This document shows positions 15,977 to 62,604 of a stretch of DNA of 64,000 bases, in pieces. Every line of letters starts with the position of its first letter. Within the stretch, counting starts at the first letter, position 1. The stretch covers positions 2,337,527-2,401,526 of the forward strand of contig OY762266.1 in NCBI GenBank assembly GCA_963665285.1, read 5' to 3'. The translations under genes were made by a program, and so were the position numbers. The notes under the pieces are model-generated. The model worked only from the letters and a program-made list of their open reading frames with translations. It did not search any database and was not told the DNA's origin. The DNA is from Candidatus Poribacteria bacterium (GTDB taxonomy: Bacteria; Poribacteria; WGA-4E; PCPOR2b).

Positions 15977-17271
15977 CCCAATGTTGAAACATTGGGATTC
16001 TTAATAGACTGATTGGTAGACATTAGCATCTCCATGCTATTTTCTTGTTTCGACGAGACAAGCCACGTATTGCTGGTGTGGTCTTACTATCTCTCCACCC
16101 TGATAAATCGGGATCCTTTCGGACAAGCGTTTTACGTCTCCGTGTGTCCCCCGGCGACGTTTCTGAGGTTTATCGCAGCGTTAAGGTCTCTGTCTTGTGT
16201 ATGCCCACAATCGCTGCAATGGTAAGTCCTATCCGATAGTGACAGGTCTTTGTCTTTTGCCCCACAAGCCGAGCAAGTCTTACTGGACGGGTAGAAATTT
16301 TAACGCCTATCCGTTCTGCTTTGTAGGCAAGCATAGTGAGAAAACTGGATAGGGAAGTGTCCGATAATACCTTTGCAAGCCTGTGGTTTTTTAACATACC
16401 TGCAACATTCAGTGACTCAATTCCAATACGACTCGCACCATGGACGATAGCCGTTGTTGCTTGGTGTTGAGCGTCCTGTCGAATGCAGGTGATACGGTAG
16501 TGTAGTTTGGCAAGTTTCGCTTTCGTCTTATGCCAATTCCGACTCCCTTTTTTCCGACGGCTTAACTGACGTTGCAGCCGTTTTAGCTTGCGCTCGTAAC
16601 GCTTTAAGGCTTTGGGGTTTTCGTGATATATACCTTCGGACGTGACAGCTAAGTGCTTGATACCTACGTCAACACCAACAACAGGCAGATGTCGATTGTC
16701 AGCAATAGTATCGTTATCGAAAGTATCAACAGTGATAGAAGCAAACCAACGGTGCACCGTTTTACAAATAACAACCTTAACGATAGTGCCGAGGTGTCGA
16801 AGTTTTTGGAACATGCGAACCCAACCCATCTTGGGTAGTTTTATACGCTGTCCTTCGACGATAGTTGTGCCTCGACCCGCATCCGCTTGGAAACTTTGAC
16901 CCCGTGAACGCTTCTTGAACTTTGGAAAACGACTCTGACCTGACTGCCAACGTTTGACTGCACGCTGAAAGTTGAAGTAAATCGCATTATGAGCAGCGCG
17001 CTGATTGAGTGCTTTACACCAATCGTATTGCTCATGTTTGGTAGCGTTGAATCGCTTGTTTAATTCTATATGTGAACGCCATTGTCCTTCGTCCAAGCTA
17101 GCCTTAAAATCAGCAAGGACATGGTTATACGCAACACGAGCATAGCCACAGTGTTGAGCGAATTGTGTCGATTGAATGTTGTTGGGATCTAAAGCGATTT
17201 TGTGAGTTTTTAACATTGGAAGTGGCTTTAGAAAAAAGGTTCGCTGTCTGACCCAACGCTAAAGCATTGGG
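15977..17271 (-). mobile_element. IS200/IS605-family tnpB-only element (IS1341-type), approximate bounds set by subterminal hairpins
   Basis: Hairpins CCCAATG-TTGAAA-CATTGGG (15977-15996) and CCCAACGC-TAAA-GCATTGGG (17252-17271) flank the tnpB ORF. Both are followed by the shared CATTGGGATT. No tnpA present. Confidence 0.5.
16132..17216 (-). pseudogene. tnpB: TnpB (IS605 OrfB, RuvC-like RNA-guided nuclease family), frameshifted near the C-terminus
   Basis: RuvC-I (VGVDVGIKHLAV) and RuvC-II (IGIESLN) are in the annotated frame. The zinc finger and RuvC-III (NFYPSSKTCSACG...YHCSDCGHTQDRDLNAAINL) are encoded intact in another frame and end at the TAA at 16132-16134. The switch maps to the A4/T4 run at about 16296-16308. 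Confidence 0.75.
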
Positions 17272-42460: not shown

Positions 42461-42802
<342 letters not shown>

Positions 42803-42933: not shown

Positions 42934-44376
42934 TTAAATATCATAGTAGAGATGAAATTCGTGTGGATGCGGACGGAGGTTGACTGCATCGACCTCGTTT
43001 TCACGTTTATACTCTATCCATGTATCAATCACGTCCTGCGTGATTACATCGCCTTCGAGCAAGTAGTCATGGTCGTCCTCTAAGGCATCAAGTGCCTCAG
43101 CTAAAGAGCCTGGCGTCGATTCAATTTCTGCCAGTTCCTCCGGCTCCAGATCATACAGGTCTTTATCAAGCGGCTCACCGGGGTGAATCTGATTCCGGAT
43201 ACCGTCAAGACCCGCCATCAGCATTGCGCTAAAAGCGAGATATGCGTTACAGGAAGGATCTGGTGTACGGAGTTCCAGTCGCTTCCCTCCCTCGCTCTGA
43301 GAATAGACAGGAATGCGGATACACGCACTCCGGTTTCTTTGCGAGTATGCAAGATTCACCGGTGCCTCATAGCCCGGGACCAACCGCTTGTAAGAATTGG
43401 TTGTTGGTGCAATGATAGCACACAACGATGGCAGGTGCTTAAGGAGACCGCCGGCGTAGTATAACGCTGCCTCGCTCAACCCAGCATATCCCTGCGGATC
43501 ATAGAAGATGTTTTTTCCATCTTTCCATAAACTCTGATGGCAGTGCATGCCTGAGCCGTTGTCTTCAAAAAGCGGCTTGGGCATAAAGGTCGCTGTCATG
43601 TTGTGGGCGCGGGCTGTATTCTTGATAATATACTTGTACAGTGCCATCTTATCGCCCATCCGGGTCATGGTGTCAAATCGCACATCAATCTCACCCTGTC
43701 CACCGGTGCCGACCTCATGGTGGTGAAGCTCTACATCAACCCCGCAATCGATCATCTTGAGAATCATTTCAGATCGAATATCTTGTAGTGTATCCGATGG
43801 CGGAACGGGGAAATACCCTTCCTTGTAGCGCGGTTTGTATCCAAGGTTCGGTCCATCATAGTCGCCTGTATTTGGATTCCAAGTCCCTTTACCTGTATTC
43901 CAACTCCCTTCAACGGAGTCAACGGAATAAAAGCCTGAATGCTGGTTTTGACCATAGCGAACATCATTGAATACGAAAAATTCAGCTTCAGGTCCCCAAT
44001 AGCTGGTATCCGCAATTCCGGTGCTCTTGAGATACGCTTCCGCTTTTTGAGCGATATGCCGTACATCTCGACTATAGCTTTCTAGGGTGATTGGATCCTT
44101 AATGTTGCAAACGAGACTGAGTGTCGGAATTTTGCAAACCGGATCGACAATCGCTGTATCCGGATCCGGGAAAAGGAGCATGTCGCTTTCGTTAATCGCT
44201 TGGAAACCGCGAATACTTGAACCATCAAAACCGAGCCCATCTTCAAACAGATCTTCCTCAAACTCTGTTGCAGGAATCGAAAAGTGGTGCCACAAGCCAG
44301 GCAGATCCGTGAATTTAAAGTCAACAATTTTGATCTCTTTTTCTCTTGCAAATTCTACAACTTCACTTGGTGTCAT
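42934..44376 (-). CDS. glnA: glutamine synthetase, type I
   Basis: 480 aa. GS beta-grasp and catalytic-domain motifs ([20 protein letters not shown]). RBS TAAGGAG. Confidence 0.9.
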
Positions 44377-44819
44377 CTAAATTCTCCTTAAACATTAAAA
44401 TATTGAGCCAAGCAATGACGATTAAACTTAAGTAGGGTCGGCACTACCCAGCGAACTCACTAAGAACGCGTATGAGCAGCCTCCCAAGGAGAAACATTTT
44501 TACCACGTTTCATACACCCTACTCAACGAATTATTGGAAACAATGGAATTTGAAAACGGGACACCTCAAAGATATAGAGCAAGCGATATGCCAATAATCA
44601 AATCGCTGTCAAAATGAAAAACCAGCACCAATTTTTCTCTGCCCCGTCTTTTTCTTATTTGTAGCAGAGAGTTGGCTCTGATAGGCGGTTTGCCACTGAT
44701 TGTCTTATTATGTGAGGTATCCTTCTAGCAAAAAATTAGTGGTATAATATAAATGCCTTAATCCATAAATGCTGAATTATTGGGCAGATCACTGCTAAAG
44801 TTTTTAGCAATGTGATTAT

Positions 44820-54171: not shown

Positions 54172-55556
54172 CCCCATCCCTTTAGGGTGGGGATGTAGCA
54201 CGCCCAAGTGCGTTGTTAGTCAAAAAACGGTTGAGATTGCAGGTAAAAGATGCTACAGTTACCTTGGCTTTCGTGAGAGGGCGCAACTTCGCTGCTTAGT
54301 GGCACCTCTCACCTCCAATTGCGTGGACATGAAATCCAGATAGCCAATTGCATAATGAAAACCTACAAGTTCAAAATGTATAGCAACCACAATAATCGTG
54401 AGTTGCAAAAAACGATTGACAGCCATGCTCATGTGTGGAATCACTTTGTGGCGTTGTGTCGCCGATACTATGCTATCTACGGGACATATCCGGGTAAGAA
54501 AGCACTGATGCGCCACTTAACCAAGTTGAAGCGGCTTCCCCGCTTTGCCCATTGGAATCAGTTGCCGAGTCAATCGTTGCAAGACGTAATAGACCGACTT
54601 GATAAAGCGTACTCTAAACTGTTTACTGACCGCAAAAGCGGCAAACGTTCCGGTCGTCCCCGTTTCAAGAGACGTAAACTATACAAGTCCTACACGCTCA
54701 AGCAAGCGGGTTGGAAACTGCTACAAGACAACTATATCCGTATCGGCAAACGGATATACCGATATTTCAAAAGTCGGAAAGTCTTAGGCACGCCGAGACG
54801 CTGTACGATTAAGCGGGACAGCGTAGGGGACGTATGGCTAATCATTCTGACAGATCATGTAGAGATGCCCTTGAATCGACCCACGACGGGTAACAGCGCG
54901 GGGTTCGATTTTGGACTCAAGCGGTATCTCACCGGGTCCGACTCCAATGACTACGACTCTCCACAATTCTTCAAACGGAGTCTCAACGCTATCAAACGTG
55001 CAAACCGCAACCGCTCACGAAAGGTTAAAGGTTCAAACAACCGTGAACGTGCGAGACTCAATGTTGCACGGAAACACCGACGTATTGCCAATCAAAGAGC
55101 CGACTTCCATTGGCAGCTAGCGCATGAGCTAACAGACCGGTATGATTGGATTTCACTGGAGACCCTCACCATTAAGGGCATGAAAAGCCTTTGGGGTCGT
55201 AAGGTCTCTGATTTGGGGTTCTATGACTTCGTCCAGAAACTGAAGTATATTAACTCTAAGAAACAGCATCGTGAAGTCCGATTCATTGATAAGTGGTATC
55301 CATCAAGCCGAACCTGTCACGTCTGTGGCGCAATTAATCAAGATCTGAACCTTCGTGACAGAACATGGCAATGTCCAAATTGCCACACAGAGTTGGATAG
55401 AGACCGTAACGCTGCGGTCAATATTCATAGGGTAGGGGCATCTACCCTCTCAGAAGAGGTCGTAAGTCCCAGTTCACCGGGCTAACTTCGTTGATAGAGC
55501 AATTCGACACCTTAAAAGGGAACGGGTGAGAATACCCACCCTTTAGGGTGTGGGAG
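54172..55556 (+). mobile_element. IS200/IS605-family tnpB-only element (IS1341-type), approximate bounds set by subterminal hairpins
   Basis: CCCCATCCC-TTTA-GGGTGGGG (54172-54192) upstream and CCCACCC-TTTA-GGGTGTGGG (55535-55556) downstream of tnpB share the CCCTTTAGGGTG core. No tnpA. Confidence 0.5.
54355..55485 (+). CDS. tnpB: TnpB (IS605 OrfB family RuvC-like, putatively RNA-guided, endonuclease), apparently intact
   Basis: MKTYKFKMYSNHNN N-terminus. RuvC-I (AGFDFGLKRYL), RuvC-II (ISLETLTIKGM), zinc finger (CHVCG...CPNCH) and RuvC-III (DRDRNAAVNI) all present in one frame. Confidence 0.85.
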   Translation: MKTYKFKMYSNHNNRELQKTIDSHAHVWNHFVALCRRYYAIYGTYPGKKALMRHLTKLKRLPRFAHWNQLPSQSLQDVIDRLDKAYSKLFTDRKSGKRSGRPRFKRRKLYKSYTLKQAGWKLLQDNYIRIGKRIYRYFKSRKVLGTPRRCTIKRDSVGDVWLIILTDHVEMPLNRPTTGNSAGFDFGLKRYLTGSDSNDYDSPQFFKRSLNAIKRANRNRSRKVKGSNNRERARLNVARKHRRIANQRADFHWQLAHELTDRYDWISLETLTIKGMKSLWGRKVSDLGFYDFVQKLKYINSKKQHREVRFIDKWYPSSRTCHVCGAINQDLNLRDRTWQCPNCHTELDRDRNAAVNIHRVGASTLSEEVVSPSSPG

Positions 55557-55713
55557 TATGTCAATAAACAGCCCAGACCACTCACCTCAAACAGGAGGAT
55601 TATAGCACAGGCGCATCCCATGTCAAGCGTAAAATTGGCATAGAAGGCGAGGCACAAAAACGTAGGTAGACACGTTCAAGCAATCCTCCACAGATAGAAG
55701 TTACACACTTCAG

Positions 55714-55734
55714 TCTGTAGTAGCGCGTTCATTG
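55714..55734. repeat. variant copy of the GTAGTAGCGC...CATTGC REP-like repeat
   Basis: CTGTAGTAGCGCGTTCATTGC compared with GTTTGTAGTAGCGCAATTCATTGCGCG at 7968 and 31196. Confidence 0.35.
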
Positions 55735-55866
55735 CTTTCTCCTCTCCCCTGCTTTCGGGGGAATAAAGGGGGACAGGGGAGTTAGAGGGGGTGCGGTTCA
55801 ACGCAGCGCAAGACTGTGAACGTTCAACTGCGTCAGTCCTAACAGATTAGAAATCGTCAACAAATA

Positions 55867-56433
55867 TCACATGCCCTCTGTGAGGATCTGGTGGAGAGGA
55901 ACGTCCCAAGTCTGCGGATAGGTATCTGTCACAATTTGCGCTTCGTAAGCTAATCCAATCCAAACTGCTTGCGGACATTGCGGCAGGAATCGATCATAGA
56001 AGCCAGCACCGTATCCGATCCGATAGCCCTTGGGGTCGAAAGCAACACCGGGAACAAAGATTAAATCGATCTGGTTCAAAGGAAAAGGAGGACAGGTTTC
56101 CCTATTCGGCTGGTACACACCGTATGGATGGAGAACAAGATCTTTTTTCGCATCTACGATACGGTGTGGTGTAAGGGTTCGCTGTTTCATACGCATCACA
56201 GGGGCAAGCGCAATCTTATTCCGAACCAACAGATAATCAAGCAGACCACCGGTCTCTACCTCACTTCGCATACTGAGGTAGACTAGGACTGCATTGGCTC
56301 GGTTCGCCTCAATCAGGTTGATTGCATGGTCAACAATCCGTCGGCTCAACTTAGCTCTTACACTTGGTGGGAGGCTGTCTCGTTTGCGGAGGACTTCCGT
56401 CCGAAGCCGCTCGCGCTCCTGTCTCTGGTTCAT
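55867..56433 (-). CDS. 5-formyltetrahydrofolate cyclo-ligase
   Basis: MTHFS family pattern (VLVYLSMRSEVET...GYGAGFYDRFL). Start moved to the ATG at 56433, which has GAGGGGA upstream. Confidence 0.8.
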   Translation of the reverse strand: MNQRQERERLRTEVLRKRDSLPPSVRAKLSRRIVDHAINLIEANRANAVLVYLSMRSEVETGGLLDYLLVRNKIALAPVMRMKQRTLTPHRIVDAKKDLVLHPYGVYQPNRETCPPFPLNQIDLIFVPGVAFDPKGYRIGYGAGFYDRFLPQCPQAVWIGLAYEAQIVTDTYPQTWDVPLHQILTEGM

Positions 56434-56453
56434 TTGGTTGGTATCCCGTCCCC

Positions 56454-57773
56454 TCACGCCTGCCATTCGATCTGGTCAATATACTTGGCAAGGGTATCGC
56501 GGAAGGTTGATGGCTTCATTTTGAGCAGTTTTGCGGCTTGCGTTTTGTTTCCCTGTGCTTTTTTCATTGCCCAACCAATGAGTTCACGCTCGGTCGACCG
56601 GATAATCTCTTGGAAGGAGATCTCACTCAACGCCTCATCTAAGCTGACCTGTGCTGGCAGTTTCAACTCAAGCGGAATATCATCGGCGGTAATATCTGCT
56701 CCGTCTCCAACCGTTACAAGTCGTTCGATCACGTTTTCTAATTCGCGGATGTTGCCGGGCCATGGATATACTGTGAGCACCTCGACAGCTTCGGGAGCGA
56801 TGTGGATGGCGGCATTGGGCGAGAATAGATCTAAAAAGTGATTAATCAAGAGAGGAATATCCTCGACCCGTTCACGTAACGGTGGCAGAAAAATCGGGAC
56901 AACGTTTAGGCGGTAGAAGAGATCGTCCCGAAATTCTCCATTCTGAACTTTCGTACGCAAATTCTTGGTTGTCGCAGCGATAATCCGCACGTCCCTCCTT
57001 TGTGTGTTTCTGTCTAGGTTTAGCTGCTGCCCCTCTAGTGCCGGTAGAAATTTGGCCTGCAGTGCATCGGGAAGGGCATCAATATCTTTAAGAAAAAGCG
57101 TCCCTTTACGCCCAAACTCGTCTTCCGTCTGCTTGTCTCCGAATAACTCTCGATCTAATGTTTCGGTAAGTACTCCTGAACAGTTTACGATCCTAAAGGG
57201 ATGGAGTCTGCGCGCGCTGTTAAAATGAATTGATTTTGCAACGAGCGTTTTTCCTGTGCCATGTTCCCCATAGATTAGCACAGTACTCTGGGTGTCGGAG
57301 ACATTTTCAAGCAGGTCAAAGAGGTCTTGTATCGCTTGACTTTTCCCGATAATATGATGGTATGGAGAGCGTCCTTTCATGGGAACTTTTAGCTGTGAAC
57401 GCTGTTTACCTCTGCCGTGGAGCATTTTCAGTTTATCCAGCATCTGAATCAGTTCTTCGCTGGAAAAAGGTTTCTTGATATAGTTATACGCCCCAAATTT
57501 CATTGCTTCTACAGCGGTTTCAACACTCGCATAGGCAGTCATGACAATCACAACAATATGGGGCTGCTCTTTCTGGACGCGCTTGAGAAATTCAATTCCG
57601 TGCATCTTTGGCAGGCGCAGATCGGTAACAAGAACATCGAAATGTTCGTTCTGAACAAGTTGTAGTCCAATCGCTGGAGACTCAACCGCGATGGTATCGT
57701 AGTTAGCCTCGCGCAAATCATCACGTAGTGTAATTAGTTTGATTTTTTCATCATCAACAACCAGTACTTTCAA
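56454..57773 (-). CDS. sigma-54-dependent response regulator (NtrC/Fis family: REC + AAA+ + HTH)
   Basis: REC domain (VVDDE...D...K), AAA+ sigma-54 interaction domain (GEHGTGKTLVAKSIH, plus a GAFTGA-like region) and a C-terminal Fis-type HTH. It starts with TTG overlapping the HK stop (TTGA). Confidence 0.85.
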   Translation of the reverse strand: MKVLVVDDEKIKLITLRDDLREANYDTIAVESPAIGLQLVQNEHFDVLVTDLRLPKMHGIEFLKRVQKEQPHIVVIVMTAYASVETAVEAMKFGAYNYIKKPFSSEELIQMLDKLKMLHGRGKQRSQLKVPMKGRSPYHHIIGKSQAIQDLFDLLENVSDTQSTVLIYGEHGTGKTLVAKSIHFNSARRLHPFRIVNCSGVLTETLDRELFGDKQTEDEFGRKGTLFLKDIDALPDALQAKFLPALEGQQLNLDRNTQRRDVRIIAATTKNLRTKVQNGEFRDDLFYRLNVVPIFLPPLRERVEDIPLLINHFLDLFSPNAAIHIAPEAVEVLTVYPWPGNIRELENVIERLVTVGDGADITADDIPLELKLPAQVSLDEALSEISFQEIIRSTERELIGWAMKKAQGNKTQAAKLLKMKPSTFRDTLAKYIDQIEWQA

Positions 57774-59512
57774 TCCTGTTCCACCCCTCTCCTAGCCGGT
57801 AATTTGACGGTGAACACGGAGCCCTGTTCAATCTTGCTATCGAATTCGATGACACCTTCATGTTGTCTGATGATTCGGTTGGATACCGAAAGCCCAAGTC
57901 CTGTCCCTTTCTCAGTAATCTTTGTGGTATAAAACGGGTCAAAAATCCGATCTTGGACGGATCTGGGGATGCCGATTCCTGTATCCGTTACTTGAACGAA
58001 AACTGTCGCTTTGCCAAGTAACGCATCAAACTCGATCTCCCCAGTTTTGAAGGTTAACGCACCACCATCAGGCATAGCGGCAATCGCATTTAGGGCAAGG
58101 TTTAAGACAACTTGCTCTAATAGGTGTTTGTCCCCAAGGATTAGATCTAGCTCTTCTTGGAAATGCTTCTTAATCTGAATACCTTTCTCGTCAGCACTGT
58201 ACGCAATCAGGCCAACGACTTCGTTAACAACCTCATTGAGAGAGACTGACGTGAGTTCCAAATCACGTTGGCGTGAGAAATTGAGAAGCTGCCCAACGGT
58301 CGATTCAATCCGCCTGAGGGCTTCCTCCATGAGTCCCAAGTATTCTTTGGTCTGTCGCTCATTCTGCGGATCACGCTTTATCCGAAGGATACAATTGAGT
58401 AGACCGTCAAGGGGGTTATTGATCTCATGTGCAACCCCTGATGCCAACTCACCTATCGCCGCCATCTTCTCTGATTGGACCATCTGCTGTTCCATCCGTT
58501 TCCGATCGGTCACGTCACGGCAAACCAAAACCGTGCCTAAGTAGTTGTCATCCCTGTCCCGCACAGCGGCATAAGTGTTTTCAAAGAATTTATCCTTAAT
58601 TTCTAGACTCTGCTGTTCAATCACCGCGTGCCCCTTCGATAAATCCTCTGCAATTTGCAGGAATACCCCGTCAGCCTCTGGGGATTGGATGGCATCTGTA
58701 TCGAGTCCGAACTGCTCTTTTTGAATCTGCTGTCCCACTTTGTTAAAGAGTGATACATGGTTCTTATCGTCAACAAAGATAACCCCTTCCTGCATACACT
58801 CAATAATTGACGTAAGCTTATTCCGCTCGAAAAGCACCGCTCCTCTTGCCTCTTCTAACTCAACGACCTTTTCCTCAAGATTGTCTTTCAATTCGCGGGT
58901 TTCCGCCTCACGCGCTCTCGCGGTGTCCATAATCGATGTCGCAAGATAAACGGAGAAAAACAGGGTACTGGTAAACACGAACAGCACACTTGAGATGTAA
59001 ATCGGATTTCGCCAGAGTGTCGCAGGTAGAAAATTCTGCAGATGGGAATGAGGCAGGATATGGTAATATTCCAAGAAAATCAGAGCACTTAAAAGAATCG
59101 TATTGAGTGCGGCGAGGATGTAACTGACTTTTTTAGAGAGAAGTATGCTCGCAATAACGAGATGAAAAATAAAGTAAAAAATAAACGGGTTTTCGACACC
59201 ACCGCTAAAGTGGATGAGTGCGGTCAAAGAGAACAAATCTAGGATAATATGTCTACCCGCATGCCGCTGAACTGATACAAGCGGCTTTTCCGTAAGATGC
59301 CTAGGATAGATTTGCGGTTCAAAGTTGTAAAGGGTCATCAATGCCGCGATGATATACAACGGCGTCGGATTATTAATGATGTGGAGTCCCCAACTTGCAA
59401 TGCTTACAGTCAGCAAGACCCCCGTTATGGCGATCCAGCGGAGCTTGACAAGCCAGCGGATTCGCTTGATGAGTTCAATTTTAAGAGGTAAATCTGTTGA
59501 AGTTGTAACCAT
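57770..59512 (-). CDS. membrane-bound PAS-domain sensor histidine kinase
   Basis: About six N-terminal TM helices, a PAS region, the HisKA H-box (HEINNPLDG) and HATPase_c N, G1 and G2 boxes (DTGIGIP, GTGLGLS). Confidence 0.85.
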   Translation of the reverse strand: MVTTSTDLPLKIELIKRIRWLVKLRWIAITGVLLTVSIASWGLHIINNPTPLYIIAALMTLYNFEPQIYPRHLTEKPLVSVQRHAGRHIILDLFSLTALIHFSGGVENPFIFYFIFHLVIASILLSKKVSYILAALNTILLSALIFLEYYHILPHSHLQNFLPATLWRNPIYISSVLFVFTSTLFFSVYLATSIMDTARAREAETRELKDNLEEKVVELEEARGAVLFERNKLTSIIECMQEGVIFVDDKNHVSLFNKVGQQIQKEQFGLDTDAIQSPEADGVFLQIAEDLSKGHAVIEQQSLEIKDKFFENTYAAVRDRDDNYLGTVLVCRDVTDRKRMEQQMVQSEKMAAIGELASGVAHEINNPLDGLLNCILRIKRDPQNERQTKEYLGLMEEALRRIESTVGQLLNFSRQRDLELTSVSLNEVVNEVVGLIAYSADEKGIQIKKHFQEELDLILGDKHLLEQVVLNLALNAIAAMPDGGALTFKTGEIEFDALLGKATVFVQVTDTGIGIPRSVQDRIFDPFYTTKITEKGTGLGLSVSNRIIRQHEGVIEFDSKIEQGSVFTVKLPARRGVEQD

Positions 59513-59556
59513 GTTGATATAGACAACTGGTGTCCCCTAAAGAAGTGTGTCAATTG

Positions 59557-59844
59557 CTACTTCTGGAACTGGACTTCCCCATGCACCTCAATCGAATCGA
59601 CAATCGCCATAATCACTGCATCAACAGGCTTGTTCTTGGTAACATCGGTTTGGCGGGCTGAACTTCCTGCTGCGGTGAGTACCAACTCACCGACGCCCGC
59701 ACCAACAGCATCAACAGCAACTGTATATCGACTGAGGAGCGTTCCATCTAGCTCAGTATCCTGTACAATCAGCAACTTACTACCGATGAGCTTTTGATCT
59801 TTTCGTGTGGCAACGACAGTACCCACAACTTTTCCAACCGTCAT
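59557..59844 (-). CDS. bacterial microcompartment vertex protein (BMC-P; EutN/CcmL/PduN family)
   Basis: [28 protein letters not shown]...[24 protein letters not shown]...[14 protein letters not shown] matches the conserved CcmL/EutN pattern along its whole 95-aa length. Start at the ATG at 59844 (AGGAAAAG upstream). The longer ORF-track N-terminus runs into the IS4 end. Confidence 0.8.
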
Positions 59845-59893
59845 GCGAAATCTTTTCCTGTTTGTTGTTAGTCCGAGAAACGCAAATCGTCTA

Positions 59894-61275
59894 AAATATA
59901 CTGTAGTTTGGACAATTTGTTTTGGCTTCATGCGTCTGTGTCACAGGTTTGTTGAATATTGGGCGATTTACTTTTTTGCGAAGTTGTCGCAGAAAATAGT
60001 CGTCTACCAATTAAATCGCGTAGATAGCGCACCATCAATCCGCGTGTCAACTTCTTAGGTCGATACCAATCAATGCCCAATTCCTGACACACCCACTCGA
60101 CGGTTATTGGCTGGCTTGTGTTAGCAATGATGGTAAAGACCAATTGGGTCAGACAAACAGCGACAAAACTGAGTTGTACCCATCGACCGATGCTTTTTTT
60201 GGATTTGACCCGATATTGGTCAAACCCGAAGTGTTGTTTAACGTCCCGAAAAGCGGTCTCAATGGTCCATCTTTTCTGATAATATCGCACAATCTGAGAT
60301 AACTCCAGAGTCAAGTCAGTGGTGTACACACAGAAGTATCGAAACGACTTAGCTTTTTTGGGTCGGGTTCGTATCACCACCAGACGCACCGGCTGTGGAC
60401 ACATTTTAGTAAGTGCTTCTACCGATGCGATGGCGTACCGTTTGTTGTCAATGTCAATCGTTGCATACCGTAGATATGGCAGGTGTAAGCGTTTGCCATA
60501 CTTCTTGGGACGTCCCCGTTTGGAACCCTTCGTTACATCAGCCAATCGATAGAAGACCGCATTGGACTTGGCACGACACAACAGATGATGCCCGGCTTTA
60601 AGCACACAGGCAAACACTTTGCGCCGATTGAACCCCCGGTCAAAGATAATCAGTCCACGGGGAATGTGAGCGCATATCCGCTTCAGAACAGCGTTGCTGC
60701 TATCTCGCTTTGTCTTGGGACATATCAGGTTCACCCAAACGGGAAACAGTATCGTCTCCGTAACCGTGCTACAAAGCAACCCCAATGCGCCAAACTGATG
60801 TCCTGAGTGAAACTTCGATTGATTTCTGTTGCGCTTGTGGTAGCGATGATTTCTAAAAAAGTGAAGTCCAAATTGCTTGTCTGATGTCTTTATCGCTTGG
60901 GTCTCATCGTAAACGTAGACCCAGTTGGCAAAGCACCCTTGCAGCAACTTAATCAGATGTTTAGCAACCACATCGGCGTCCCACTTGCCACGGGAGAGGA
61001 ACTTCACCAAAGAGTGGTAACCGCTTGGCGGTCGAACCGCTTGATAAATGTCAGTCACCGTCGCACTGCGGGGGGCAGTGATAAACCCTACAATAAATGT
61101 GCTAAACAGGGTGAAACTTTGACTGTTGAATAACGGACGAAAATCGGTTAAAATACTCGCGAGGCAGAATATGAGGTACATTAACTTCTCCTTTCAAAAT
61201 TGTGATGGATTTCTGAAAGGATAACCTCTTTTCTGCCTCTTTGCACTTAAAATTGTCTAAACTTTAGTAAAATAT
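59894..61275 (-). mobile_element. IS4/IS701-like insertion sequence with imperfect 26-bp terminal inverted repeats
   Basis: IRs AAAATATACTGTAGTTTGGACAATTT (59894-59919) and AAATTGTCTAAACTTTAGTAAAATAT (61250-61275) match at 19 of 26 positions in inverted orientation. They enclose a single DDE transposase gene. Confidence 0.65.
59928..61181 (-). CDS. DDE transposase, IS4/IS701-like (DDE_Tnp_1)
   Basis: 417 aa with the YYxxRWxIExxFRDxKQxxG C-terminal signature of IS4-superfamily transposases. Confidence 0.85.
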
Positions 61276-61401
61276 AATGTGTTATCAAAACATCATTGAC
61301 AAAATTGTCTGAGCATAGGTATAGTAAACTGAAGCTGTCAAAAAGTCAAGATTTTATTCCAAACCTGTTGGGAAAGGTTCATCAATTCTAGGGGGAAAAC
61401 T

Positions 61402-62604
61402 GTGTCAGATAAAGTTCGTTTAGCGGTCATTGGTTGTGGTGGAATCGCAAATGCGCATCTGCGAGGATATCAAGCGTTAGTGGAAAAAGGGGTTAACACC
61501 TTTTCAATTGAGGCAACGTGTGATGTGCGTAGAGAAGCAGCGCAAAATTATGCGGAACAGGTTGCAGAATTGCAAGAGACCATGCCCCGCGTTTACAATG
61601 ATGTTGAGGAAATGCTGAAAGCCGAGGATTTGAATGGGGCAGATATCTGTACATCGCATGCCTATCACCACATTTCCGCCATCCCGTGTCTTGAATCGGG
61701 CGTTGATATTATGACGGAGAAGCCGTTTGGGGTAACAATCAAAGCAAGCCAGAAGATGATCGAAGTCGCGGAGAAACACGGACGACTGACTGCTACGGCA
61801 GAGAATTGTCGCAGGACGCCCGGACAACGAACTGTCAGATGGGCACTCAATGAAGGAAACATTGTCGGGACACCTCGAATGTTCTTCGCACAATCCGCAG
61901 CGTGGAACGATCCGGCGAATATCGGCGATTGGCATTGGCGATTAGGGAAAGAGTTTAGCGGGGGTGGTATGGTGATGGACAGCGGCGCACACATGATGGA
62001 CACCATCCGATACTTCTTCGGTGATGTCGAAAAAGTTTACGCCGAAGTCCGTCAGATTGATGGACGATTCGCCAATCATGCCGAAAAAGGGAAGGTGCCT
62101 ACCTGCCATGAAGATACTTGGGTCGCGGTCATTACGTTCAAGAGTGGTGTCGTTGGAACGTGGAGTTGGACGGTTGCTGCGCCATGCGCTAACCATCTGA
62201 ATGTCGCTTTCTATGGTGCCGAAGGCGTCATCCGTGATAGCGGCGATGTCTTTCATCCGTTTACAGCTAAGGATCGAGGGGAAGCGGAGAGACTTGATGG
62301 AACAAGCTACAGCATGCAGGAACTCCGCGAGATGTACCTTGAAACGTTAAGCGATGGCGAGGAAGCACGACTTTTCCCACATGGGATTGAGGACGGTTTC
62401 GCTTTGGAGCTCTACGATTTTATCGACGCAATTCGGAATCGACGCTCCCCGGAAGTGGACGGTTGGACCGGTTTGCAAGCCAAAGCCATATCAATCGCAA
62501 TCTATGAGTCAGGATATTCTGGAGAGGTGGTGACTATCGCTGATGTGATTGATGGGAAAGTTAGCGGATACCAGCAAGAGATTGATGAGCATTGGGGGCT
62601 TTAA
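61402..62604 (+). CDS. Gfo/Idh/MocA family oxidoreductase
   Basis: GTG start preceded by AGGGGGA. N-terminal LAVIGCGGIANAH Rossmann motif and EKP motif (TEKPF). Confidence 0.8.
   Translation: MSDKVRLAVIGCGGIANAHLRGYQALVEKGVNTFSIEATCDVRREAAQNYAEQVAELQETMPRVYNDVEEMLKAEDLNGADICTSHAYHHISAIPCLESGVDIMTEKPFGVTIKASQKMIEVAEKHGRLTATAENCRRTPGQRTVRWALNEGNIVGTPRMFFAQSAAWNDPANIGDWHWRLGKEFSGGGMVMDSGAHMMDTIRYFFGDVEKVYAEVRQIDGRFANHAEKGKVPTCHEDTWVAVITFKSGVVGTWSWTVAAPCANHLNVAFYGAEGVIRDSGDVFHPFTAKDRGEAERLDGTSYSMQELREMYLETLSDGEEARLFPHGIEDGFALELYDFIDAIRNRRSPEVDGWTGLQAKAISIAIYESGYSGEVVTIADVIDGKVSGYQQEIDEHWGL

What the first reader, a model, noticed from the sequence alone, without database searches (positions are those of the whole stretch)
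59557..61275. Orphan microcompartment vertex (EutN/CcmL) gene fused to a PAS-HK/sigma-54 regulator operon and abutted by an IS4-like insertion
A full-length BMC-P gene (59557-59844) sits 44 nt upstream of a PAS histidine kinase / NtrC-type regulator pair on the same strand. No shell hexamer (BMC-H), aldehyde dehydrogenase or other BMC core gene occurs anywhere in the 64 kb. An IS4/IS701-like element with recognisable IRs ends about 50 nt upstream of the BMC-P start, so the gene may have been severed from its locus or captured as a satellite. A vertex gene wired to a sigma-54 two-component system is an unusual arrangement and could mark a regulated satellite BMC locus.
Basis: partly seen in the sequence, partly recalled or inferred. 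Interest (0 to 1): 0.7.

Follow-up and report, generated by a model that had tools for sequence, protein, structure and literature searches.

The report
Poribacterial satellite microcompartment vertex gene
The lone microcompartment vertex gene ahead of a sensor kinase and regulator is real, but this is the conserved, already published layout of sponge-symbiont Poribacteria, and the neighbouring insertion sequence arrived recently and did not cause it.

Summary
A full-length 95-aa EutN/CcmL (BMC-P) gene lies at 59557-59844 on the minus strand. A PilS-like PAS histidine kinase starts 44 nt downstream, followed by an NtrC-family response regulator and a 5-formyl-THF cyclo-ligase. No BMC-H, aldehyde dehydrogenase or PduL gene occurs in the 64 kb. 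A 1,367-bp IS701-family element ends 56 nt upstream of the BMC-P start.

A close relative has the same neighbours and an empty insertion site, so the IS severed nothing. It is one of at least 8 copies encoding the identical transposase in this genome. The layout is already published. Kamke et al. 2014 called it poribacterial "BMC group C". Sutter et al. 2021 list such poribacterial genes as satellites of the dispersed FRAG2 microcompartment type.

The gene is under strong purifying selection (dN/dS 0.04-0.11). It is 60% identical to the solved Haliangium vertex pentamer. Its SAG 3G orthologue is transcribed in sponges.

The regulator is probably not sigma-54-dependent. All orthologues lack the GAFTGA loop and have a degenerate Walker B motif. 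A conserved sigma-70-type promoter precedes the gene across Poribacteria, whether or not the kinase-regulator pair is present.

Verdict: real, ordinary for this phylum, low novelty.

The parts
59557..59844 (-). BMC-P (EutN/CcmL) vertex-protein gene, 95 aa
   Evidence: PF03319 E=9.6e-29, full length. It is 60% identical over 95/95 residues to H. ochraceum BMC-P, PDB 5V74. dN/dS is 0.035-0.11 against orthologues.
57770..59512 (-). Sensor histidine kinase with a PilS-like 6-TM domain, PAS_10, HisKA and HATPase_c
   Evidence: Pfam. No NCBIfam equivalog reaches its cut-off. All ten loci with an orthologous HK have EutN directly upstream.
56454..57773 (-). NtrC-family response regulator (REC, AAA+, Fis-type HTH) lacking the GAFTGA loop and the Walker B DE pair
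   Evidence: Pfam. Alignment to Aquifex NtrC1 shows the L1 loop deleted. The deletion is conserved in 5 orthologues and in L090/L091.
55867..56466 (-). 5-formyltetrahydrofolate cyclo-ligase, last gene of the unit and the most constant neighbour of this BMC-P in Poribacteria
   Evidence: PF01812 E=1.2e-39. Synteny in L001-4, L081/82, L087, L088, L090/91.
59901..61267 (-). IS701-family insertion sequence, 1,367 bp, a recent insertion
   Evidence: Empty site in L001. Seven of the eight copies found are 1,367 bp with 0 mismatches to each other.
59928..61181 (-). DDE transposase, 417 aa
   Evidence: NF049999 transpos_IS701_3, 210.7 bits against cut-off 170. Also DDE_5 and DDE_Tnp_1.
59901..59918 (.). 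IS terminal inverted repeat (CTGTAGTTTGGACAATTT)
61250..61267 (.). IS terminal inverted repeat (reverse complement CTAAAGTTTAGACAATTT)
59892..59900 (.). Target-site duplication TAAAATATA, copy next to EutN
61268..61276 (.). Target-site duplication TAAAATATA, copy next to the promoter
61321..61349 (-). Conserved sigma-70-type promoter of the BMC-P unit (TTGACT-N17-TACTAT inside the motif TTGACTTT-N11/12-AGTTTAyyAT), now cut off from the gene by the IS
   Evidence: Consensus scan. The motif occurs 11 times in 1.9 Mb of fetched DNA, always upstream of a poribacterial EutN, including loci without the kinase-regulator pair.
61296..61325 (+). Divergent promoter-like site towards the GFO/IDH/MocA oxidoreductase gene (61402-62604)
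   Evidence: 11/12 consensus match.

Best explanation
This is one of the dispersed shell-gene loci of the poribacterial FRAG2-type bacterial microcompartment.

The 95-aa protein is a canonical BMC-P. I infer that it forms the pentamers capping the vertices of a shell whose hexamer (BMC-H) and PduL genes lie elsewhere in the genome.

It is the first gene of a small transcription unit driven by a conserved sigma-70-type promoter. In this lineage the unit also carries a PilS-like PAS histidine kinase, an NtrC-family response regulator and 5-formyl-THF cyclo-ligase. The regulator has lost the sigma-54-contacting GAFTGA loop and the Walker B acidic pair. I therefore infer that it acts as a phosphorylation-controlled, sigma-54-independent DNA-binding regulator.

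The IS701-family element is a recent, incidental insertion of a multi-copy IS between the promoter and the gene. It is co-oriented with the operon and no terminator is predicted. The operon is therefore most likely still expressed by read-through from the native promoter or from the transposase gene.

Shown: gene identities, synteny, empty site, target duplication, IS copy number, purifying selection, motif loss. Inferred: pentamer and shell role, co-transcription, read-through, and what the regulator controls.
For: - Identity: PF03319 full-length hit. 60% identity to the H. ochraceum vertex pentamer of a solved shell. 20 of 22 positions invariant in BMC-P genes of intact loci are retained.
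- Selection: dN/dS 0.035-0.11.
- Synteny: EutN-HK-RR-5FTHF is conserved in divergent Poribacteria. It is identical to Kamke 2014 group C on SAG 4E.
- Classification: Sutter 2021 lists a 95-aa poribacterial BMC-P as 'FRAG2 (sat)', with a BMC-P triplet plus two BMC-H per genome.
- Origin: the closest non-poribacterial relatives sit directly after BMC-H in full loci.
- Expression: the SAG 3G orthologue is transcribed at 0.38x the housekeeping level, and the adjacent cyclo-ligase at 0.39x.
- IS: empty site and 9-bp duplication. At least 8 copies encoding the identical transposase, one of them between ftsA and ftsZ.
- Regulator: GAFTGA is absent.
- Promoter: conserved sigma-70-like motif.
Against: - I could not show BMC-H or PduL in this genome or its close relatives. 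Both searches returned only Eisenbacteria-like proteins. The shell role therefore rests on homology and on the literature for the phylum.
- Co-transcription and read-through are inferred from spacing and from the absence of predicted terminators.
- The structure model was too poor (pLDDT 59.5) to test the fold.
Confidence: 0.75

Rival explanations
1. Regulated satellite. The kinase-regulator pair is functionally wired to the microcompartment. It senses a signal through its PAS or membrane domain and controls this operon, and perhaps the other shell loci. Vertex-protein supply would then be signal-dependent.
For: - All ten loci with an orthologous kinase have EutN directly upstream, with gaps of 8-44 nt. 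The exception is L002-L004, where two small ORFs open a 555-nt gap.
- Kamke 2014 report a second, unrelated HK/NtrC-type pair next to the tandem BMC-P genes of 'group B'.
Against: - Several poribacterial lineages keep the BMC-P and its promoter motif or cyclo-ligase neighbour but have no kinase-regulator pair (L079-L082, L087).
- The promoter motif is conserved in L079/80, which lack the pair.
- No operator or sigma-54 promoter was found.
Confidence: 0.2
2. First reader's model. The IS4/IS701 element cut the BMC-P away from a complete BMC locus, or captured it as a mobile satellite.
For: The IS lies 56 nt from the gene, and no other BMC gene is in the window.
Against: - L001 has identical flanks without the IS and one copy of the 9-bp target.
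- The same synteny is found in lineages whose BMC-P is only 69% identical.
- The IS carries only a transposase gene. At least 8 copies encoding the identical transposase sit at unrelated sites.
Confidence: 0.02
3. Moonlighting. The BMC-P has been co-opted as a shell-independent partner of the kinase, for example as an accessory signalling or ligand-binding pentamer.
For: - The EutN-HK linkage is tight and conserved.
- BMC-P genes outnumber BMC-H genes in poribacterial single-cell genomes (Kamke 2014).
Against: - The sequence stays canonical and close to a structurally proven vertex protein.
- The gene persists under similar constraint where the kinase is absent.
Confidence: 0.06
4. Decaying remnant. 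The gene is a non-functional leftover of a lost microcompartment.
For: It is isolated from other BMC genes, and mobile elements flank the unit.
Against: - The ORF is intact, with dN/dS 0.035-0.11.
- More than 100 conserved 95-aa homologue clusters exist, most of them apparently poribacterial.
- The orthologue is transcribed in situ.
Confidence: 0.02

Closest known systems
Poribacterial 'BMC group C' (Kamke et al. 2014, PMC3909097), classed as a FRAG2 satellite locus by Sutter et al. 2021 (PMC8217296)
   Same: Same gene order as SAG 4E or0690-or0693: EutN, then a PAS_10/HisKA/HATPase kinase, then an NtrC-family regulator, then 5-FTHF cyclo-ligase. It is a 95-aa BMC-P remote from BMC-H.
   Different: This genome adds an IS701-family insertion upstream and a TnpB element downstream. 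In this clade the unit abuts the dcw cluster. The published descriptions did not note the missing GAFTGA loop or the conserved promoter.
Haliangium ochraceum BMC-P (PDB 5V74, 6MZX)
   Same: 60% identical over the whole 95 residues, and of the same length. That protein is the pentameric vertex of a solved intact shell.
   Different: The HO gene sits in a locus with BMC-H, BMC-T and enzymes. This one stands alone with regulators.
Eisenbacteria-type main locus (L083-L086): PTAC, BMC-H, BMC-H, BMC-P, AldDH, RnfC/PduS-like, BMC-T, BMC-P, class II aldolase
   Same: Its first BMC-P is 64-65% identical to the window protein, among the closest non-poribacterial relatives found. The Eisenbacteria assignment comes from the names of related BMC-H and PduL hits. 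Sutter's tree also places an Eisenbacteria MIC7 BMC-P next to the poribacterial one.
   Different: There the gene is embedded in a complete metabolosome locus. In Poribacteria the locus is fragmented.
GAFTGA-less enhancer-binding proteins (R. capsulatus NtrC, Caulobacter NtrC, NtrX, VpsR)
   Same: NtrC domain architecture with the L1 loop deleted. Such proteins are reported to act at sigma-70 promoters. Brucella NtrX aligns with the same gap.
   Different: It is not an orthologue: the NtrX model scores 265 bits against a cut-off of 600. Here Walker B is also degenerate, and in some orthologues the arginine fingers are lost too.
IS701 / IS4 superfamily insertion sequences
   Same: DDE transposase above the NCBIfam IS701 cut-off, terminal inverted repeats, a single ORF and many copies.
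   Different: Target duplications are 8-9 bp and TA-rich. From memory, IS701 elements usually make 4-5 bp duplications and IS4 elements 8-13 bp.

Membership tests
BMC-P (EutN/CcmL, PF03319) vertex protein | Full-length PF03319 domain in a single-domain protein of about 90-100 aa | tested here: met
   E=9.6e-29, profile 1-83/83, 95 aa.
BMC-P (EutN/CcmL, PF03319) vertex protein | Family-invariant residues retained | tested here: met
   20 of 22 positions that are at least 90% conserved in BMC-P genes of intact loci are kept. The other two changes are conservative. 60% identity to 5V74.
BMC-P (EutN/CcmL, PF03319) vertex protein | BMC-P fold | tested here: inconclusive
   The AlphaFold model has mean pLDDT 59.5. 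The top Foldseek hits are BMC-P chains but with TM 0.29, so they are driven by sequence.
BMC-P (EutN/CcmL, PF03319) vertex protein | Forms pentamers that cap a BMC-H shell | not testable with these tools
   Needs biochemistry or imaging.
FRAG2-type fragmented BMC (Sutter 2021) | Shell genes dispersed, with this gene away from BMC-H and enzymes | tested here: met
   No PF00936, PF00171 or PF06130 in the 64 kb.
FRAG2-type fragmented BMC (Sutter 2021) | The genome carries a BMC-P triplet plus two BMC-H genes | not testable with these tools
   Only the window and 10-kb flanks can be read. Searches for poribacterial BMC-H and PduL failed. The literature reports these genes for the phylum.
FRAG2-type fragmented BMC (Sutter 2021) | Poribacterial host (21 of the 33 catalogued FRAG2 loci) | tested here: met
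   The closest homologues that carry a source name are annotated Candidatus Poribacteria. Gene content is rich in PhyH, WD40 and FG-GAP domains.
Sigma-54-dependent enhancer-binding protein | AAA+ Sigma54_activat domain plus a Fis-type HTH | tested here: met
   PF00158 E=3.7e-37 and PF02954.
Sigma-54-dependent enhancer-binding protein | GAFTGA loop that contacts sigma-54 | tested here: not met
   Deleted relative to Aquifex NtrC1. Absent in the window, L001, L002, L088-L091.
Sigma-54-dependent enhancer-binding protein | Walker B hhhhDE motif for ATP hydrolysis | tested here: not met
   TLFLKDID in the window and TLFIANVD in L088/L089, against the consensus TLFLDEI.
Sigma-54-dependent enhancer-binding protein | A -24/-12 promoter at a linked target | tested here: not met
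   No site near the operon, and window-wide counts equal chance.
IS701-family insertion sequence | Family transposase above the curated cut-off | tested here: met
   NF049999, 210.7 bits against 170.
IS701-family insertion sequence | Terminal inverted repeats, target duplication, and an empty site in a relative | tested here: met
   18-bp inverted repeats (15/18). Matching 8-9-bp duplications at 5 of the 7 copies whose ends were found. L001 has the empty site.

The most novel reading that the evidence does not exclude
In Poribacteria the vertex protein may have become part of a signalling module. It could be a direct partner of the PilS-like kinase. Alternatively, its supply could be set by an autoregulated, sigma-54-independent NtrC-like regulator, so that capping and closure of the dispersed FRAG2 shells responds to an environmental signal. 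The strict EutN-kinase adjacency, and the second kinase-regulator pair beside the other BMC-P genes, do not exclude this.
Probability: 0.1. Interest if true: 0.6.

Novelty: already known. Interest (0 to 1): 0.2.

Why it matters
The lone vertex gene is not an IS-made accident or a new kind of locus. It is a conserved, expressed piece of the fragmented microcompartment that characterises Poribacteria.

The small additions could guide anyone studying how FRAG-type microcompartments are regulated:
- the regulator lacks GAFTGA and is probably sigma-54-independent;
- a conserved sigma-70-type promoter precedes the gene;
- the kinase-regulator pair is dispensable in some lineages;
- an active IS has landed between the promoter and the gene.

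The function of FRAG microcompartments is still unknown.

Tried and rejected
It was still useful for outgroup contexts.
2. I searched for poribacterial BMC-H and PduL, starting from the Eisenbacteria-type locus L083. Both searches returned only Eisenbacteria-like proteins. BMC-H in this genome therefore remains unshown.
3. I looked in the Jahn 2016 supplements for antibody peptide sequences of the poribacterial BMC-H, to build a query. None are given.
4. AlphaFold on a 35-sequence alignment gave pLDDT 59.5 and Foldseek TM 0.29. This is not usable as a fold test.
5. The sigma-54 promoter search found nothing near the operon, and overall counts equalled chance.
6. Rfam found no RNA family in the window.
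7. I looked for a conserved operator upstream of the gene. Only the promoter motif and a loosely conserved TGTCAAT stretch appeared, and I do not interpret the latter.
8. The 152-nt extra segment after the cyclo-ligase gene is not repeated in the window.
9. The BMC/dcw proximity in Acidobacteriota proved to be two clusters separated by four opposite-strand genes. I did not pursue it.

Full report
**What is there.**
All genes of the finding lie on the minus strand.
- 59557-59844 encodes a 95-aa protein that matches PF03319 (EutN_CcmL) over the whole profile (E=9.6e-29).
- A 580-aa histidine kinase starts 44 nt downstream (57770-59512). It has a PilS-like 6-TM domain, PAS_10, HisKA and HATPase_c.
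- A 439-aa NtrC-family response regulator (56454-57773) overlaps the kinase by 4 nt.
- A 5-formyl-THF cyclo-ligase follows (55867-56466).
- Beyond that lie a TnpB gene (plus strand) and the dcw cluster: rsmH, ftsL, a PBP, Mur ligases and mraY.
- Upstream is a 417-aa DDE transposase (59928-61181), then a divergent GFO/IDH/MocA oxidoreductase and an SLT transglycosylase.

No BMC-H was found when PduA was run against every stop-to-stop ORF of the window. Pfam scans of about 48 ORFs found no BMC-H, aldehyde dehydrogenase or PduL.

**Organism.**
The closest homologues of the BMC-P that carry a source name are annotated Candidatus Poribacteria. The window is rich in PhyH, WD40, FG-GAP/ASPIC and TPR genes. 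An identity look-up of the transposase places the window on contig ctg36534l (2.196 Mb) of ENA assembly ERZ25084387, where locus L168 contains the same sequence.

**The IS did not make this arrangement.**
- L001 carries a BMC-P 96% identical to the window's. Its gene order is the same: SLT, GFO | EutN-HK-RR-5FTHF-rsmH-ftsL-PBP-Mur. It has no IS.
- Aligning the two intergenic regions gives exact boundaries. The IS is 59901-61267 (1,367 bp) with 18-bp imperfect inverted repeats.
- TAAAATATA flanks the IS on both sides and is present once in L001.
- The transposase passes the NCBIfam IS701 cut-off.
- The identical transposase occurs at 8 or more places on the two contigs of this assembly. Seven of those copies are 1,367 bp with no mismatch. 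Five of them have matching 8-9-bp TA-rich target duplications.
- The insertion sites are unrelated to one another. One lies between ftsA and ftsZ.

This is a recently active IS that happened to land 56 nt upstream of the BMC-P start.

**The arrangement is conserved and already published.**
- EutN-HK-RR-5FTHF recurs in poribacterial lineages whose BMC-P is only 69-83% identical (L002-4, L088, L090, L091). L089 has EutN-HK-RR.
- Other lineages have EutN-5FTHF without the kinase-regulator pair (L081/82, L087), or EutN alone (L079/80).
- Seen from the kinase side, all ten loci with an orthologous kinase have EutN directly upstream. More distant kinases (35-48% identity) have none.
- Kamke et al. 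2014 describe exactly this as 'BMC group C': or0690-or0693 on SAG 4E, and EutN followed directly by the cyclo-ligase on SAG 3G.
- The same paper describes 'group A' (BMC-H plus PduL) and 'group B' (tandem BMC-P plus another HK/NtrC-type pair).
- Axen et al. 2014 call all poribacterial loci satellite-like.
- Sutter et al. [quoted passage not shown] They list a 95-aa poribacterial BMC-P as 'FRAG2 (sat)'.

**Is the gene functional?**
- dN/dS against orthologues is 0.035 (L001), 0.096 (L002), 0.098 (L088) and 0.112 (L089).
- The nearest solved structure is the H. ochraceum BMC-P in the intact shell (5V74). It aligns over all 95 residues with 60% identity.
- 20 of 22 positions invariant in BMC-P genes of intact loci are retained.
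- In the Jahn et al. 2016 sponge metatranscriptomes, the SAG 3G orthologue (gene 2265145161) has FPKM 335/261/302, or 0.38x the housekeeping mean.
- The adjacent cyclo-ligase is at 0.39x, and the BMC-H gene at 1.34x.
- A structure prediction was too poor to add anything.

**Where it came from.**
Outside Poribacteria, the closest relatives (46-65% identity) almost always sit directly after a BMC-H gene in full loci. In the Eisenbacteria-type loci L083-L086 the order is PTAC, BMC-H, BMC-H, BMC-P, AldDH, RnfC/PduS-like, BMC-T, BMC-P, class II aldolase. The poribacterial gene therefore looks like the first BMC-P of such a locus that has been separated from its partners. This is an inference.

**The regulator is probably not sigma-54-dependent.**
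- Aligned to Aquifex NtrC1, the query reads 'FGDKQ--------TED---EFGRKGTLFLKDI' against '[32 protein letters not shown]'. The GAFTGA loop is deleted, and the Walker B DE pair is KD.
- All five aligned orthologues lack GAFTGA. L088 and L089 also lack the Walker B acidic residues and the arginine fingers.
- L090 and L091 lack GAFTGA as well. The regulator next to a distant kinase (L092) has it.
- No NCBIfam equivalog cut-off is reached by the kinase or the regulator.
- GAFTGA-less NtrC relatives are reported to act at sigma-70 promoters.
- No -24/-12 site lies near the operon.

**Promoter.**
A sigma-70-type site, TTGACT-N17-TACTAT, lies at 61349-61321 on the minus strand. It is part of the motif TTGACTTT-N11/12-AGTTTAyyAT. 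The motif occurs 11 times in 1.9 Mb of fetched DNA, always upstream of a poribacterial EutN, and also in L079/80, which lack the kinase-regulator pair.

The IS now separates this promoter from the gene. The transposase is co-oriented with the operon, and no terminator-like site is predicted in 59400-61500. Read-through is therefore the likely route of expression. The identical IS copy between ftsA and ftsZ argues the same way, because ftsZ must still be expressed. This is an inference.

**Verdict.**
The finding is real but ordinary for this phylum and already in the literature. The IS story is wrong, and the 'sigma-54' label is doubtful. Whether the kinase-regulator pair actually controls the microcompartment remains open. 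I could not verify BMC-H in this genome.

Noticed in passing
window 54319-55485 (+), element about 54180-55556: A TnpB-only IS200/605-type element (NF040570, 238 bits) sits between a perfect sigma-70 promoter (55626-55599, 12/12 with extended TG) and rsmH. The promoter is conserved in L001, which lacks the element. A mobile element therefore splits the promoter-gene junction of both the EutN unit and the dcw cluster.
   Followed up: partly
L166-L173 (assembly ERZ25084387): The IS701-family element is present in at least 8 copies encoding the identical transposase. Seven are 1,367 bp with 0 mismatches. One lies between ftsA and ftsZ (L170). The left flank of L166 equals the right flank of L172 (TAGTTTTTA), which suggests recombination between IS copies.
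   Followed up: partly
window 59557-59931 (-): An ATG inside the IS end overlaps the transposase stop codon (ATGA) and is in frame with EutN. This gives a 124-aa ORF with 29 extra N-terminal residues. Translational coupling could produce an extended BMC-P. The native ATG and its AGGA are intact.
   Followed up: no
window 44578-44593 (-): TGGCATATCGCTTGCT, a near-consensus -24/-12 sigma-54 promoter, lies about 200 nt upstream of glnA (42934-44376). The P-II gene follows at 42461-42799. The organism therefore probably uses sigma-54 elsewhere.
   Followed up: no
L002-L004, 10298-10843: In these relatives two small ORFs, one weakly CopG-like, are inserted between EutN and the kinase. The gap widens from 8-44 nt to 555 nt.
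   Followed up: no
L057, L058, L061, L066, L067, L075 (Acidobacteriota): A BMC-H plus three BMC-P cluster lies about 4-5 kb upstream of rsmH/dcw in six species. In L057, four opposite-strand genes separate the two clusters. This is probably coincidental with the window's EutN-dcw proximity.
   Followed up: partly
L083-L085, 1-7900: In the Eisenbacteria-type locus, polysaccharide-biosynthesis genes directly precede PTAC and BMC-H. This echoes the Kamke 2014 description of poribacterial group A (BMC-H, PduL, exopolysaccharide genes) and hints at a shared ancestral layout.
   Followed up: no
window 55696-55847: A 152-nt segment after the cyclo-ligase stop is absent from L001. It contains a C-rich/G-rich inverted stretch and is not repeated elsewhere in the window.
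   Followed up: partly
window 16170-17216 (-): A second OrfB_IS605/TnpB-like ORF (348 aa) lies elsewhere in the window.
   Followed up: no
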